From a virus (Duplodnaviria; Heunggongvirae; Uroviricota; Caudoviricetes), in the IMG/VR virus record IMGVR_UViG_3300046047_000272: a stretch of DNA of 64,000 nt. The stretch is one strand, 5' to 3'. Positions 15,001-21,000 of the stretch are shown here, in pieces. The position numbers were made by a program. The stretch's first letter is position 1; each line of letters starts with the position of its first letter.

Positions 15001-18000
15001 GTTCTGAGCCTAACTAGATCTCATGGCCTATTGGATATGCGCTAATATCAATAATTAGAAGTCTGAGTCATTGCCATCATCGTAATCATTTCGGAAGATG
15101 TAATATCCTAGATATCCTAAGCCGCCGGTTATGATGACCTCTACAATCCAGAAGACGATTGATGGAGCAATGGTCGTATGTGATGCATCATCTCGAACGG
15201 ACGTTATCGTGGCGTCGCGGCTGAATGATTTGAACATGCTCAGGCCATTGGCGTCAGCATTGAGATACGCGACGCCGGTGTATTGTGATGGCGCGGCCTC
15301 ATAGACATATCTGACGTGATATCCTCCTGGGCATGAATCCTCGTCGCAGCCATTGATGCCGATGCTTGATAGTGATACTGATGACTCATGAATGTGGACA
15401 TAATCGTATGACAGCTCGTATCCTAGGAGATTAGCCTTTTTAGCCGTCTTTGACCAACTGTCGTAATCGTCCCATGACCAGTATACTCTTGTGCATGTCC
15501 TAGGATGTTTACTCGTACCACATGGATACGATTCCTCATGCATCGTGTATCGTTGTTCCGTCTTGGTGACTGACGCCGTACAAGCCTTAGTACCCATTTC
15601 ATCGAATCTCGCACACTGATCATCAGGAATAGTCACCTTACCATAGGCGAGCATATTGCCCACATCGGTTTTAATCTGCCATTTGAAGTCATCTGTTTTC
15701 GTCACGTCAATGGATGACGTGATCTGACTTTTAAGATCAGCGTCATGATCCTGCCATGATCCAATGAGTGAACTCAGAATTATGGTGAGGATCAACCATC
15801 CTACAATGACACCAGATAAGATGAGGAACGTCCGTCCTTTTAATCGGGTGAAGACGGAGTTCTGCATGATGCGTTTCATGATGACCTTTCACTATTCGTG
15901 TGCATTTTAATGTGGCTGTTACATAGTGTTGTCTCGTTGATTACTTATCCCAGAGATTCGTTGAGCTAGGATCGTAGGACTGTGCAGAGGATGACGCGGT
16001 GAATGGCTGATAATCCTTAGCCTGGTATCCGGCGAATGACAGAAGGACGCTATTCGGGAAGGTCTGCGTGCTATTCTTATAGTCTCGTACAGACGTGTTA
16101 TAGGCCTGTCGAGCATTGGACAGCTGATTCTCGATAGTCGTGGTCTCCTGATTGACCTGAGTGAAGAGGTCAATGGTCTTCAGTTCCGGATATGCTTCGG
16201 CGGTTGCGTTCAGGATGGTACCACTAGAGGAGATGTCTCCTGATTGGGCCTTTGATCTCGCATCGGTAAGCTTGGTCAGCGTGTCCTGTTCGAATTTCTT
16301 GGACTCCTTCACCGTGTTAATCATCTGTGTAAGAGCATCAACACGTTTCTGAACGATGGTCTGGACATTCGCCTGCTCTCGTTCAATCATATTCTCCTTT
16401 TTGATGGCTGAGTTCTTCGAGCCTTGTCCAGCGAAGAAGAATCCTGCGACGATTACAACGATGACGATGATCGTCGCACCAATGAAGGACGCTGTCTTTG
16501 ATGTTGAGTTTGTGGTTGCCGTATTGTCTGTGGACATGATATATGTGCTCCTTATAGACATCATATAGGAGTCCGATGGGACTCCGCGTACAACGATTAT
16601 ATCACAGATGAGAATATGCTGATGATTATATCAGCATGGTGTGTCGTCGTTTGCCGATAGGACGATATGATGATATGATGGTATCATTCATTCACGAGGT
16701 ATAGAATAGGAGTCAAATTATGGCCTTAGCCACATTGTCCAAGACTGATGATTCTAGCACTGGTCGTAAGACCGTGAACTTCATTGGCCGGCCAATTGAT
16801 ACGCATACGATGACGGTCAATGCTAATGTCCTGGAAATGATCATTAAGCAATTGACTGATCTTTATAAGGACCCAATCAAGGCTACGGTCCGTGAGACGA
16901 TATCGAATGCTATTGACGCGACGATTCTTGCTCGTGCTCAGGGTCAGGATGCGCCTAATGTTGATGTTCAGACGCCATCCTCGTTTGATCCTACCTTCAT
17001 GGTCACTGATCATGGTGTCGGCATGGATGCAGAGCAGTTGTATGCGAATTTCGCTGATTATGGTAATTCGACAAAACTCGACGACATGACATCAACCGGT
17101 AGTAAGGGTCTTGGCGCGAAGGCTCCACTGGCTTATACAACGACTGTTGTAGTCACCACAGTCAAGGATGGCCATAAGATCGTCCTCACGTTGAATCGAG
17201 GAAATCACTCCAATGAGGCCGAGAAGATCTTCGACGGTGACGCCGACGAGCCGAATGGTACGCAGGTCAAGGTCCCAGTTCGAGTTGAGGACGTATCAAA
17301 ATTCTCGGACGTCATCAATGATTATCGCAGTACGGCGACGCCGGACATCCCCATGAACATCGATGAGAAGCCGATCGTTGATGACTTCAATAAGACCTGG
17401 TCGTTCTTCAAGGACTTGGAAATCGCCAAGGATGCTCAGGGTCATCCAGTCATGGGTTCGATCTATTTGAATAAGAATCATGAATACTTCAAATCGCTTT
17501 TCTCCAACTGGATAAGTTATGCACAAGACTACTGGAATAGTGATGGTTCAATAGAGGCTAATCGAAATTTTGTCGCGGGAATGACGTCTATCTCCCTCAT
17601 GGGATGGAGATACTCCTTGAGCGATTATCATGATATGAATACGAGTATCCTGGTGAAGATTCAGCCTGGTGTTGTAGACTTTCCTCCTTCGCGAGATGAT
17701 ATTAAGACGAATGACCGATTCTACCATCTTACCGACGCTATTCTGTCGGCCTTCAATCTTGATAGAGTCGCGGAGACGAAGGACACGTTTACTGTTGCCG
17801 ACACGTGGGCCGACCTTCCAGAGGAATACCGATACGTTGTTCTTGATTACATGATTGCTCATGTCAATCCGAGCAATGGGCGTATTTATGACAGTTTGAA
17901 GACTGTCTGGCCAGATGAATCCAAAACATATCTCGATGACCCTCATGAACCTTCGTTCAGAGCCATCATCCCTTTCTATGGATCGAATGTCAGTCGATAC

Positions 18001-21000
18001 ACTAATTCGGAGCGATTCTCCATGTCCTCGTTGTTGTTCATCAAACAGCACATCACCATGAATGATCAGTCCTATCGCAAATTCTCTGGTGTTGATGCGA
18101 ATGTGGCTTTATCAAGTGCGCTGATTAATAACGATGTGGACAAGATCGATAATGATGATAATAACAGGATGCACATCAATTATGAGATCGAACAATATAT
18201 GAAGTACGCGGAGGCGAATGATCTTTCTCTTGATCATGATTTGAGAGTGCCCCTGTCATGGCTTGAGCATAAGCCGGATACGGTAAAATTACGGCCTTAT
18301 GACAATATCCGTCTCATCGTCATTAAGGGTGATTTCGATCCCACTAAATCGTATCGTCGTCTTCGTCGTTGGGTGAAGCAGGAATATCGTGACTTGATGA
18401 TTACTGGTTGCTCAATCGTATGCTGCATCTATGATGGCAATCCCTCTGATACGCAATTTGACGCACTTAAGCAGGCATTGTCAGGGTCCTCAGATCAGAA
18501 TGACAGTGTCTGGCTTGGCGTCAAGGACTGGGACGATCTGAAGATCGTGTCCACGCGTTCGTCAACAGGGGGATCAACAATCTCCACTGTGGATGAGCCA
18601 TCAACGGTAAAGGGTCATCTAATCGACGCTGACTTTGATCTTCATGACACGGTTATGGACATCTTCAATGAAGGCATGAACGGATCTCTGACCTGCGATG
18701 ACGAATTCCTAATCGAGGATCTTGTCGACCAGGACGCGTCATTCATCTTCTTTGATGACACCGGTAGCTATAGTTGGGTCAATATCAGGAGGGCCATTGG
18801 CGTCATCATTAGGAATTATGAGGACATGAAGCGTCATCCTGTATTCATCGTCGATTTGAAATTGAACAGTCGATTGTACGCGAAGGACGTCGCATCACTC
18901 ATTGGCTACGATCGTATCTGGGTTGCGGATAGATTGAAATCAATCGTGAATCTTAAGGCCTTCAAACTGGCCAAGAACTATAGTTTGGACACTGAGATAT
19001 TCTGTCAGGCAGTATTCGAACGTCCGGACGTGTTCGTCGACGAGGTGTCCACCGTATTGTCATCACCTATCATCGTGAACAGGATGGATGAGCGCTTCTC
19101 AAATAGAGTTAAGGCCTCTAATATTCTGAATAATATGAACCTTGCCCATAGCGTGACCGATGATAACAAGTTCGTCCAATCGCTTCTGCACGCTGATGTC
19201 ATTATTCACATTGGAGCATACGATACACCGGATGACATCACTTCATCGTATATTAACGATAGGATGGATGATCTCACCACGACTATTGATCATCTAAAGG
19301 ATCTCACAGCGGCGAAGCGATGTCGTCTCATGCAATCGATAGCTACAGTCAGGCTGCACGCAGCGATGGCTGATGTGATTAATGATGATCAGGATAATGC
19401 TGATTATCAAATCATTACTCGTGCCTTCGGCAACTGGTATGGTTCATCTGAAGCCACTGCTGACATGCTGAGGAGACGTCAAGATTCACCGTTCATCACA
19501 TATCTTGATACCGTGTATGAGAACATCAAGAAGCAGGCTGAGCAAGCCATGAAGGCGTGAGGACATGGACAATGAATGGTATAATGTATAATATTAGCAC
19601 GTTGTCATTCATTGTCCTTCCATGTATAATAGGATTATGATAGGCAGCTACATAAGGAGTAGGTATGATAACAATAACCAGTCTTTCCGGTAATCAGAAT
19701 GAATTGACCGGAGCATACGAGGAGATTCATGGTGTGCTGAGTCTCGATGATGGCACAGCTAAGACATTCGCTCTGCAAAGGAGTTCTACTGATAAGAGCA
19801 AGGCGTTCGATGACATTGTCGATGGTATCAATCGTCAGATATCGAATAGCGAATAAGATCATGAAGGCCGTGTCCACGGCTAACGTCGTTGAGGAAGAGT
19901 TACGTAAGACTGATCTTACCTCGATCGGTCTGAATGATCGTCTTACTCGTAGCGGTTCGAGGATCTTCATGGACGGAGAGCCAATCAGCCCGGTTCTTGA
20001 ACGTGAGGTCATATCTATTCTTGATAGCAAAGATCCAGATACGCAGAAGCATTGGAAGGCTTTTGCCCTGTTCATCAAGGATCTGTACTCTAATAACACG
20101 AAGTACATTCGTGAACAGCTCTTCGACTGGTTGGAATCAAATTTCGAGTCATCGTCTAAGGGATTCACGCTTCTTGATGATGGTCGTATCGTTGGATACA
20201 AGGGATGCGCCAACTCTGATGGCATCCCCATGAGTGAGATGAGCGGACTCGGATTAGTCAAGGAGAAGGGTCAGGACAGCTTCACTGAGATCAACGGATT
20301 CATTCCTAATAAGGTTGGATCTGTAGTCATGATGCCGAGAACCATGGTGACGAACGATCCTGCTCAAGGTTGTAGTAAGGGTCTTCATATCGGTACGTGG
20401 GATTATGCGTATTCCTGGGGATCCGGATTCGTTCTTACAGTAGCTTTCAGTGCCGCGGATGTGGTGTCCGTGCCTATTGATTGTGATTATCAGAAACTCA
20501 GAGCTTGCAAGTATGAGGTCCTGAATATTACAGAGCAGCCATCGAATGACATCACACTTGATTATGCGGGCTTCGATGACGAGGATGAAGATGACGACGA
20601 TGACGATGAGTAATCGTTAAATTCATATCCTTGAACACCATCTAATCACGCGATTCCACATATCTACTTGAGGAGTCGCGTGATCGTCTATTAAGGAGCA
20701 TATATGGCCCTACCAAAGCGAAATCATCATAGTGATGAGCAACATGACCAGTCAAACATTATTCAAGCAAGTATGCCAGCACCACCGGTATTACATGTTG
20801 ATGATCATGAGGAGTCCGATGGATTCAGTAATGAATCCTTCACACCAGAGAATATGCTCGGATTACCAGCATTTGATCAACAGGATGATTATGATACCCC
20901 TGATCCAGACATGGTAGAACAACCAGTAAATATCGAACCAGTAATGTCGGATGAACCATCATTTCATGAAGTACCAGATCATGTAGATAGTAGTCAGGAT

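What the first reader, a model, noticed from the sequence alone, without database searches (positions are those of the whole stretch)
16720..19560. 946-aa protein with an Hsp90/MutL/GyrB-like GHKL ATPase head and no recognisable partner domains
Clear N-box (ETISNAIDA), G1 (DHGVGMD) and G2 (GSKGLGAKA) motifs lie in the first 140 residues. The following 800 residues match nothing obvious: no TOPRIM and no histidine-kinase DHp. It sits between LemA and a run of membrane and envelope genes.

It could be a divergent chaperone, a MORC-like DNA-manipulating ATPase, or a novel phage factor.
Basis: seen in the sequence. Interest (0 to 1): 0.55.

Follow-up and report, generated by a model that had tools for sequence, protein, structure and literature searches.

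The report
Giant-phage rIIA gene, next to rIIB
The 946-residue protein is a divergent copy of rIIA, the classic phage T4 gene. It sits beside its usual partner rIIB in a roughly 491-kb phage genome, so it is a recognisable member of a known though mechanistically unsolved family, not a new kind of ATPase.

Summary

The interpretation missed the identity. The protein is an rIIA homologue (PHROG 'RIIA lysis inhibitor' E 2.7e-45; BLASTP to T4-type rIIA E 4e-16 over residues 13-381). The next gene is rIIB (PHROG E 1.8e-31; Pfam PF26926 on the called gene).

Residues 1-335 form the rIIA core: GHKL plus a probable transducer-like domain carrying the PGxVDFxxSR[DE]…DR block shared with T4. Residues 336-946 are lineage-specific. 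A tandem Rossmann-like region and a helical bundle match no family, which fits the published description of rIIA as a GHKL head with a highly variable C-terminus.

The contig is 491 kb, and relatives lie on 350-420-kb contigs. rIIB directly follows the rIIA homologue in 36 of 54 related loci.

Most likely function, by analogy with T4 and other tested phages: an ATP-driven partner of rIIB that counters RexAB-type abortive-infection systems at the membrane. This is inferred, not shown.

Side observations: rIIB is frame-split here, and the pair sits in a conserved LemA/VKOR/TelA envelope block.

Verdict: new member of a known kind, low interest.

The parts
16720..19560 (+). rIIA homologue, 946 aa (whole ORF including stop)
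   Evidence: ORF. phrog_612 'RIIA lysis inhibitor' E 2.7e-45. tblastn hits rIIA in 2477 phage records. BLASTP to T4-type rIIA E 4e-16. Foldseek against BFVD: most of the named top hits are phage RIIA, best E 1.6e-19.
16894..16920 (+). GHKL N-box ETISNAIDA (residues 59-67; E59 presumed general base, N63 presumed Mg2+ ligand)
   Evidence: Read directly from the sequence. E59, N63 and D66 are invariant in 27 homologues and align with T4 rIIA RELITNMIDA.
17008..17028 (+). GHKL G1 box DHGVGMD (residues 97-103)
   Evidence: D97, G99 and G101 are invariant. Aligns with T4 DFGPGM.
17098..17124 (+). GHKL G2 box / ATP-lid GSKGLGAKA (residues 127-135)
   Evidence: G127, S128, G130, G132, A133 and K134 are invariant. 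Aligns with T4 GGFGLGSKS. The lid has low pLDDT in the model (residues 115-130).
16822..17364 (+). Bergerat-fold ATPase domain (residues ~35-215)
17365..17724 (+). Second conserved domain (residues ~216-335), probably transducer-like. Carries the rIIA signature block PGVVDFPPSRDDIKTNDR (residues 316-333, nt 17665-17718).
17725..18276 (+). Lineage-specific helical linker, long beta-hairpin and helices (residues ~336-519)
   Evidence: Secondary structure from the model. No Pfam or PHROG match.
18277..19014 (+). Tandem flavodoxin/Rossmann-like alpha/beta region (residues 520-765). This is the only C-terminal part conserved beyond the immediate clade.
19015..19557 (+). C-terminal all-helical bundle (residues ~766-946)
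19665..19856 (+). rIIB N-terminal fragment (63-aa ORF in a different frame from the rest of rIIB)
   Evidence: tblastn: residues 2-63 of the L002 rIIB (2-55 of L010) match this frame, 56-58% identity, E 1e-16 to 4e-18. Called as a separate 63-aa gene.
19747..20613 (+). rIIB main part (longest ORF 288 aa; called as 267 aa from 19810; an in-frame ATG at 19861 is another possible restart)
   Evidence: phrog_609 'RIIB' E 1.8e-31. Pfam PF26926 Phage_T4_rIIB on the called gene. BLASTP to Aerococcus phage AVP rIIB E 2e-19. Frame break shown.

Best explanation
The ORF is the rIIA gene of a very large (about 491 kb) tailed phage, and with the adjacent rIIB it forms an rII module.

Shown here:
- It is homologous to T4-type rIIA over the first ~335-380 residues.
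- All ATP-binding and catalytic motifs of the GHKL fold are intact.
- It has the second, rIIA-specific conserved domain.
- It is followed by rIIB, as in T4 and in most related loci.

Inferred:
- The N-terminal module works like other GHL-type ATPases (GyrB, Hsp90, MutL, MORC). ATP binding closes the lid and dimerises two heads, possibly through the conserved N-terminal segment 1-31. A basic residue of the second domain (candidates R325 or R333) senses the gamma-phosphate, so hydrolysis drives a conformational cycle.
- That cycle is passed to the lineage-specific C-terminal region, which probably sets partner or target specificity.

By analogy with T4, T6, N4 and other phages tested genetically, the rIIA/rIIB pair acts at the cytoplasmic membrane. 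There it prevents RexAB-type abortive-infection systems, which depolarise the membrane, from aborting the infection. It is probably dispensable on hosts that lack such systems.

The confidence given is for the whole statement. The identity as an rIIA homologue is about 0.95; the mechanism and role are about 0.6.
For: Family assignment:
- phrog_612 RIIA E 2.7e-45, plus five more RIIA PHROGs.
- 2477 phage records hit by tblastn; the annotated best places are labelled rIIA.
- BLASTP to T4-type (phage AR1) rIIA E 4e-16 over residues 13-381, and to Aerococcus phage AVP rIIA E 4e-32.
- Profile against T4 rIIA: hhalign probability 98.5%.
- Foldseek BFVD top hits that carry a name are mostly RIIA.

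Fold and motifs.

Partner gene:
- The downstream gene is rIIB.
- rIIB directly follows the rIIA homologue in 36 of 54 related IMG/VR loci that have enough downstream DNA.
- Natural RIIA-RIIB fusion proteins exist. Phage RB43 has a 1049-aa example, and both window proteins hit different parts of the 1055-position phrog_609 profile.

Phage context:
- The contig is 491,046 bp, and relatives lie on 350-420-kb IMG/VR or JGI contigs.
- The window carries RNR, clamp loader, RNA ligase/PNK genes and 7 tRNAs.

Function, from the literature:
- Divergent rIIAB modules (<40% identity) from T4, MM02, EdH4, SUSP1 and N4 are all needed on lambda RexAB cells and not otherwise (PMC11879866).
- rIIAB counters RexAB, and RIIB is itself sensed by a gasdermin defence system (PMC10312443).
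Against: - No biochemical mechanism is known for any rIIA. ATPase activity, dimerisation and membrane association are all inferred.
- The protein has no predicted transmembrane segment.
- The C-terminal 610 residues show no detectable sequence relation to the C-termini of T4 or AVP rIIA or of the ~800-aa IMG/VR environmental-contig group. 'Orthologue' therefore holds only for the N-terminal third.
- rIIB is frame-split in this genome, so the module may be partly decayed, or the assembly may be wrong.
- The host and its defence systems are unknown.
- A clade of 13 related jumbo-phage loci has no detectable adjacent rIIB.
Confidence: 0.75

Rival explanations
1. A MORC/MutL/topoisomerase-like ATPase that manipulates DNA. 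The GHKL-transducer module would clamp DNA, and the C-terminal region would bind or process it.
Against: - All those sequence hits are far below family cutoffs: 22 bits against 274, and 20.9 against 550.
- There is no TOPRIM, nuclease, CW or other DNA-binding domain.
- The C-terminal alpha/beta region gives only generic Rossmann-like hits.
- Every specific family match is to rIIA.
- The phage carries a separate type IA topoisomerase at 27376-29888.
Confidence: 0.06
2. A phage-encoded Hsp90-like chaperone that folds or holds phage or host client proteins.
Against: - The match covers only ~80 residues of the N-domain: 29.8 bits against a 455-bit cutoff.
- No Hsp90 middle or C-terminal dimerisation domain is detectable.
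- The conserved second-domain motif is the rIIA one, not Hsp90's.
- Conserved linkage to rIIB points to the rII system.
Confidence: 0.04
3. An rIIA-derived protein with a different target. The lineage-specific C-terminus would couple the ATPase to another host defence, or to the neighbouring envelope genes (LemA, VKOR, TelA), not to a Rex-type system.
For: - The C-terminus is unrelated in sequence to the T4, AVP and ~800-aa IMG/VR-group rIIA C-termini. Only 3 other proteins in 1.84 billion representatives match it by phmmer, one of them spurious.
- The block LemA / rIIA-rIIB-TM protein-VKOR-TelA-… is syntenic in genomes whose rIIA is only 39% identical.
- The literature itself asks whether divergent rII modules target other systems (PMC11879866).
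Against: - Synteny across three related giant phages may simply reflect common descent.
- VKOR recurs near rIIA in only one more distant locus, L019.
- TelA has no relatives in GenBank phages to test linkage.
- Divergent rII modules tested so far all act against RexAB.
Confidence: 0.15

Closest known systems
Phage T4 rIIA (Tequatrovirus rIIA, 725 aa; 'protector from prophage-induced early lysis')
   Same: - N-terminal GHKL ATPase with the same N-box, G1 and G2 motifs.
- The same second conserved block (…D[FI]xPSR[DE]…DR).
- 24% identity over residues 13-381, E 4e-16.
- rIIB encoded next to it.
- No transmembrane segment.
   Different: - 220 residues longer.
- The C-terminal ~610 residues show no detectable sequence similarity to T4's C-terminal ~390.
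- It is encoded in a ~491-kb genome, not a 169-kb one.
- Its neighbours are envelope genes, not topoisomerase gene 39 as in the T4-type phage AR1.
- rIIB is frame-split here.
rIIA-like proteins of other large phages (Aerococcus phage AVP 828 aa, Streptomyces and Arthrobacter phages, Vibrio KVP40; PHROGs 612, 2979, 30832, 24904, 38678)
   Same: Best pairwise match is AVP rIIA (29% identity over residues 6-333, E 4e-32), which also has rIIB directly downstream. The overall architecture is the same: a GHKL head followed by a long variable tail.
   Different: C-terminal regions are not alignable by profile methods, except with the 800-1000-aa metagenomic group B in the alpha/beta region.
GHL-type GHKL ATPases (Hsp90/TRAP1, GyrB/topo II/topo VI-B, MutL, MORC)
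   Different: There is no TOPRIM, Hsp90 middle/C domain, MutL C-terminal endonuclease or dimerisation domain, or MORC CW/coiled-coil. All family-model scores are far below cutoff.

Membership tests
Phage rIIA | Significant match to rIIA family profiles or sequences | tested here: met
   phrog_612 E 2.7e-45, plus PHROGs 2979, 30832, 24904, 38678 and 3661. T4-type rIIA BLASTP E 4e-16. hhalign probability 98.5%. The match covers only the N-terminal third of the profiles.
Phage rIIA | N-terminal GHKL (Bergerat) ATPase domain with intact motifs | tested here: met
Phage rIIA | Second conserved domain with the PGxxD[FI]xxSR[DE]…DR block shared with T4 rIIA | tested here: met
   Residues 316-333 are invariant in 27 homologues, align with T4 PMGSLDIAPSRE…DDR, and occur in 66 of 99 homologues.
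Phage rIIA | Encoded next to rIIB (rIIAB operon) | tested here: met
   The downstream gene matches phrog_609 RIIB E 1.8e-31 and PF26926. 36 of 54 related loci have the same arrangement. Caveat: rIIB is frame-split.
Phage rIIA | C-terminal region homologous to that of T4 rIIA | tested here: not met
   hhalign of C-terminal-only profiles against the T4, AVP and ~800-aa IMG/VR-group C-termini gives probability <= 0.2%. Foldseek full-length alignments to RIIA models have low TM (0.23-0.38) and are inconclusive. The literature states that this region is highly variable within the family (PMC7824862), so this is not a strict family criterion.
Phage rIIA | Needed for growth on RexAB-type hosts; membrane-associated | not testable with these tools
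   Requires genetics or biochemistry. The host is unknown.
Hsp90/HtpG chaperones | Hsp90 N-domain plus middle and C-terminal dimerisation domains; score above the family cutoff | tested here: not met
   NF010683 29.8 bits against 455; NF003555 15.2 against 371. PDB profile hits cover only the N-box region, residues 53-107.
Type II topoisomerase B subunits (GyrB/ParE/topo VI-B) | GHKL + transducer + TOPRIM (GyrB), or pairing with an A subunit | tested here: not met
   No TOPRIM in Pfam. NF003218 22 bits against 274. Fold similarity is limited to the ATPase module.
MORC / MutL | GHKL + S5-fold transducer plus CW/coiled-coil (MORC) or a C-terminal dimerisation/endonuclease domain (MutL) | tested here: not met
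Histidine kinases | DHp (HisKA) domain preceding the CA domain | tested here: not met

The most novel reading that the evidence does not exclude
In this clade of giant phages, rIIA carries a new C-terminal module: a tandem Rossmann-like region with faint CARF-like resemblance, followed by a helical bundle. The rII pair would then be one component of a larger, conserved envelope-protection island (LemA, 2-TM proteins, VKOR, TelA, Band_7 in a relative, transglycosylase). On this reading the variable C-terminus is the adaptor that links the ATPase cycle to lineage-specific membrane partners or small-molecule signals, not to a Rex-type channel.
Probability: 0.12. Interest if true: 0.5.

Novelty: new member of a known kind. 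Interest (0 to 1): 0.2.

Why it matters
It assigns a 'mystery' 946-aa ATPase to rIIA. It also shows that the rII module, one of the oldest genetic systems in molecular biology, extends into ~0.5-Mb phages with a longer, unrelated C-terminal region.

rIIA still has no known biochemical mechanism. The invariant residues mapped here (E59, N63, D97, the G-rich lid, and S324-R325-D326…R333), together with the domain boundaries, give concrete mutagenesis and construct-design targets. T4 itself remains the better experimental system.

The conserved linkage to LemA/VKOR/TelA is circumstantial support for a membrane-centred role.

Tried and rejected
- **Nucleotide search.** Megablast of 14000-24000 against GenBank phages found no match, so there is no close sequenced relative.
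- **C-terminal family searches.** Pfam and PHROGs on the C-terminal 606 residues and on sub-fragments gave only noise, E > 0.01.
- **C-terminal phmmer search.** Against 1.84 billion representatives it gave 4 hits. One (P0099) is an InlB B-repeat surface protein whose score is inflated by six repeat copies and which aligns a beta-repeat to a predicted helical region. I rejected it as spurious.
- **C-terminal profile comparisons.** hhalign of C-terminal-only profiles against T4, AVP and the ~800-aa IMG/VR group found nothing. An earlier run with greedy settings (-mact 0.1) produced full-length alignments, but these were driven by the N-terminus and I disregarded them.
- **PDB sequence search.** Only the N-box of Hsp90/TRAP1/topo VI-B matched, and there is no solved rIIA.
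- **PADLOC.** Nothing for rIIA, rIIB or the neighbours.
- **TelA against GenBank phages.** tblastn found no match, so the rII-TelA linkage could not be tested more widely.
- **Promoter and terminator scan.** Counts were no higher than in shuffles. One good TTGTCA-17-TATAAT lies between rIIA and rIIB, with no statistical weight.
- **T4 rIIA scan of IMG/VR.** It returned only near-identical T4-like copies, useless for building a T4-clade profile.
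Full report
**1. The observation**

The ORF 16720..19560 (+) is real and intact: 946 aa with an ATG start. An identical protein is on record from a 491,046-bp contig.
- ETISNAIDA at residues 59-67
- DHGVGMD at residues 97-103
- GSKGLGAKA at residues 127-135

Pfam HATPase_c_3 matches residues 56-170 above its gathering score (39.3 against 25 bits, E 7.8e-10). In an alignment of 27 full-length homologues (914-970 aa, 21-38% identical), E59, N63, D66, D97, G99, G101, G127, S128, G130, G132, A133 and K134 are invariant.

An AlphaFold2 model built on that alignment has mean pLDDT 71.8. It superposes on:
- TRAP1
- topo II ATPase modules, including phage T6 topo II (256 residues)
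- MutL N-terminal domains (222-230 residues)
- MORC2/3 (250-269 residues)

The motifs therefore do form a Bergerat fold. The aligned lengths beyond ~170 residues suggest a transducer-like second domain, as in the GyrB/Hsp90/MutL/MORC branch. I could not inspect coordinates, so the second-domain assignment stays at the level of 'consistent with'.

**2. What it is**

All specific similarity points to phage rIIA:
- PHROGs gives phrog_612 'RIIA lysis inhibitor' at E 2.7e-45 (residues 30-266), plus five further RIIA families.
- tblastn against GenBank phages hits 2477 records. The annotated places among the best rows are labelled rIIA, including the T4-type phages.
- BLASTP gives E 4e-16 against the rIIA of T4-type phage AR1 (query residues 13-381, subject 4-337).
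- BLASTP gives E 4e-32 against the rIIA-like protein of Aerococcus phage AVP.
- Foldseek against BFVD returns named hits that are mostly RIIA proteins (best E 1.6e-19).

Beyond the GHKL core there is a second block: L293, G295, W296, Y298, then P316-G-V-V-D-F-P-P-S-R-D…N331-x-R333. It is invariant in the 27 homologues, recurs in 66 of 99 homologues, and aligns with T4's PMGSLDIAPSRE…DDR. It is an rIIA signature.

The gene immediately downstream is rIIB:
- phrog_609 E 1.8e-31, plus four more RIIB families
- a precomputed Pfam PF26926 Phage_T4_rIIB hit on the called gene
- E 2e-19 to AVP rIIB

**3. Related loci**

An IMG/VR scan with the family alignment returned 80 loci. Of the 54 loci with at least 1200 nt downstream of the rIIA homologue, 36 have a phmmer-detectable rIIB directly after it.

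Natural RIIA-RIIB fusions exist. Phage RB43 has a 1049-aa example. The two window proteins also hit the N- and C-terminal ends of the same 1055-position PHROG. This supports functional coupling.

One clade of 13 jumbo-phage loci (L011-L023) has no detectable adjacent rIIB. In L012 the next gene is thymidylate-synthase-like.

The two closest relatives (rIIA 39% identical) are L002 and L010, the latter on a 419.7-kb contig. They share a long syntenic block with the window: RNR, M78-like, 2-TM ORF, LemA (divergent), then rIIA, rIIB, TM protein, VKOR, TelA and five more ORFs.

**4. The C-terminal ~610 residues**

Residues 341-946 have no Pfam or PHROG match. A phmmer search of them against 1.84 billion representative proteins finds only the protein itself, two clade members and one spurious repeat protein.

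C-terminal-only profile comparisons show one conserved stretch, residues ~528-751. It is shared with a second group of 800-1000-aa metagenomic rIIA-like proteins (hhalign probability 96%, E 4.4e-9), and weakly with the L011 group (45%). There is nothing against the C-termini of T4 or AVP rIIA or of the ~800-aa IMG/VR environmental-contig group.

**5. How it most likely works**

Shown: homology, fold, motif conservation and gene linkage.

Inferred from established knowledge of GHL-type ATPases:
- ATP binding closes the Gly-rich lid. That lid has low confidence in the model (residues 115-130), as flexible lids usually do.
- ATP binding also promotes head-to-head dimerisation, perhaps through the conserved N-terminal segment. 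M1, L6, K8, G15, H29 and M31 are nearly invariant.
- A basic residue from the second domain contacts the gamma-phosphate. The invariant R325 and R333 are candidates.

The biological role is taken from the literature. rIIA and rIIB let T-even phages grow on lambda lysogens expressing RexAB, which otherwise depolarises the membrane and aborts infection (PMC11879866, PMC11077077). Knock-down of divergent rIIAB pairs (<40% identity) from T4, MM02, EdH4, SUSP1 and N4 reduces plating only on RexAB cells. RIIB is itself the trigger of a CARD/gasdermin defence system (PMC10312443).

The molecular mechanism of rIIA is unknown for any phage. No solved structure exists by sequence search.

The protein here has no predicted TM segment. 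If it is membrane-associated, that would be peripheral or through partners.

The neighbourhood is rich in membrane and envelope proteins: LemA, two multi-TM ORFs, VKOR, TelA, a transglycosylase, and Band_7 in a relative. This is compatible with a membrane-centred role but could simply reflect shared ancestry of three related genomes.

**6. Rivals**

- *MORC/topoisomerase-like DNA manipulator.* It has only generic ATPase-module fold similarity in its favour. There is no DNA-handling domain.
- *Hsp90-like chaperone.* This rests on the N-domain alone: 29.8 bits against a 455-bit cutoff.
- *rIIA derivative with a different target.* This cannot be excluded given the unrelated C-terminus. It is the basis of the 'novel case'.

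**7. Comparison and novelty**

The protein passes the tests for rIIA membership that can be run in silico: profile match, GHKL head, the rIIA-specific second block, and an adjacent rIIB. It fails only C-terminal similarity to T4, which the family as a whole does not conserve.

It is a new, longer, divergent member of a known family, found in a very large phage. The window also carries RNR, clamp loader, RNA-repair genes and 7 tRNAs.

Interest is low. The main value is correcting the annotation and mapping the conserved residues.

**8. Side finding**

Relative to its two closest relatives, rIIB is broken here. Residues 2-63 are encoded in one frame (19665-19856, ending in TAA) and residues 63-307 in another. 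The DNA alignment shows 8 nt missing.

The only second copy of this sequence comes from the same sample, so an assembly error is not excluded. From my own knowledge, not tested here: the N-terminal 'B1' segment of T4 rIIB tolerates gross alteration. A restart at ATG 19861 might therefore still give a functional protein.

Noticed in passing
window 19665-20613: rIIB is split between two reading frames relative to its closest relatives (L002, L010). A 63-aa ORF with a strong AAGGAG RBS encodes the N-terminus, and the rest lies in another frame. The DNA alignment shows 8 nt missing after …GAATAGCGAATAAG. This is either a real frameshift/split gene or an assembly error. The only other copy comes from the same sample.
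   Followed up: partly
window 15055-27360; L002; L010: The rII pair sits in a conserved block rich in membrane and envelope genes: a 2-TM ORF and LemA (divergent), then rIIA, rIIB, a multi-TM ORF, VKOR (E 6e-30), TelA (E 3e-20), several unknown ORFs and a transglycosylase-domain protein. Band_7 appears in the L002 relative. The block is syntenic in genomes whose rIIA is only 39% identical. VKOR also lies ~1.7 kb downstream of rIIA in the more distant L019.
   Followed up: partly
window 27376-29888: A type IA topoisomerase appears as two ORFs (475 and 362 aa) whose coordinates overlap by 4 nt. They match consecutive parts of one PHROG profile (positions 4-450 and 469-711 of phrog_13226), with Pfam Toprim/Topoisom_bac. 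It is either a split gene or a two-subunit enzyme.
   Followed up: no
window 3834-6647: An IS-type transposase (phrog_12300, E 7e-41) lies in the only stretch of raised GC (0.51 against ~0.45). It is probably a mobile element inserted in the phage genome.
   Followed up: no
window 7157-8632, 44103-45365, 59274-60260, 61736-63931: An RNA-repair and translation set: two polynucleotide kinase/RNA ligase-type genes, a weak match to tRNA nucleotidyltransferase (E 2e-7), and a cluster of 7 tRNA genes (Pro x2, Asn, Lys x2, His, Leu). This is typical of huge phages that counter tRNA-targeting defences.
   Followed up: no
L011-L023 (IMG/VR contigs of 108-420 kb): A clade of 13 jumbo-phage loci carries an 832-892-aa rIIA homologue (30-33% identical) with no detectable rIIB next to it. 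In L012 the downstream gene is thymidylate-synthase-like. rIIB may be elsewhere in these genomes, or absent.
   Followed up: partly
window 19567-19617: A perfect 12-nt inverted repeat (GGACAATGAATG / CATTCATTGTCC, 27-nt loop) lies just after the rIIA stop codon. It overlaps a TTGTCA-17-TATAAT promoter-like site ahead of rIIB. It may be a regulatory element between the two genes, but there is no statistical support.
   Followed up: no
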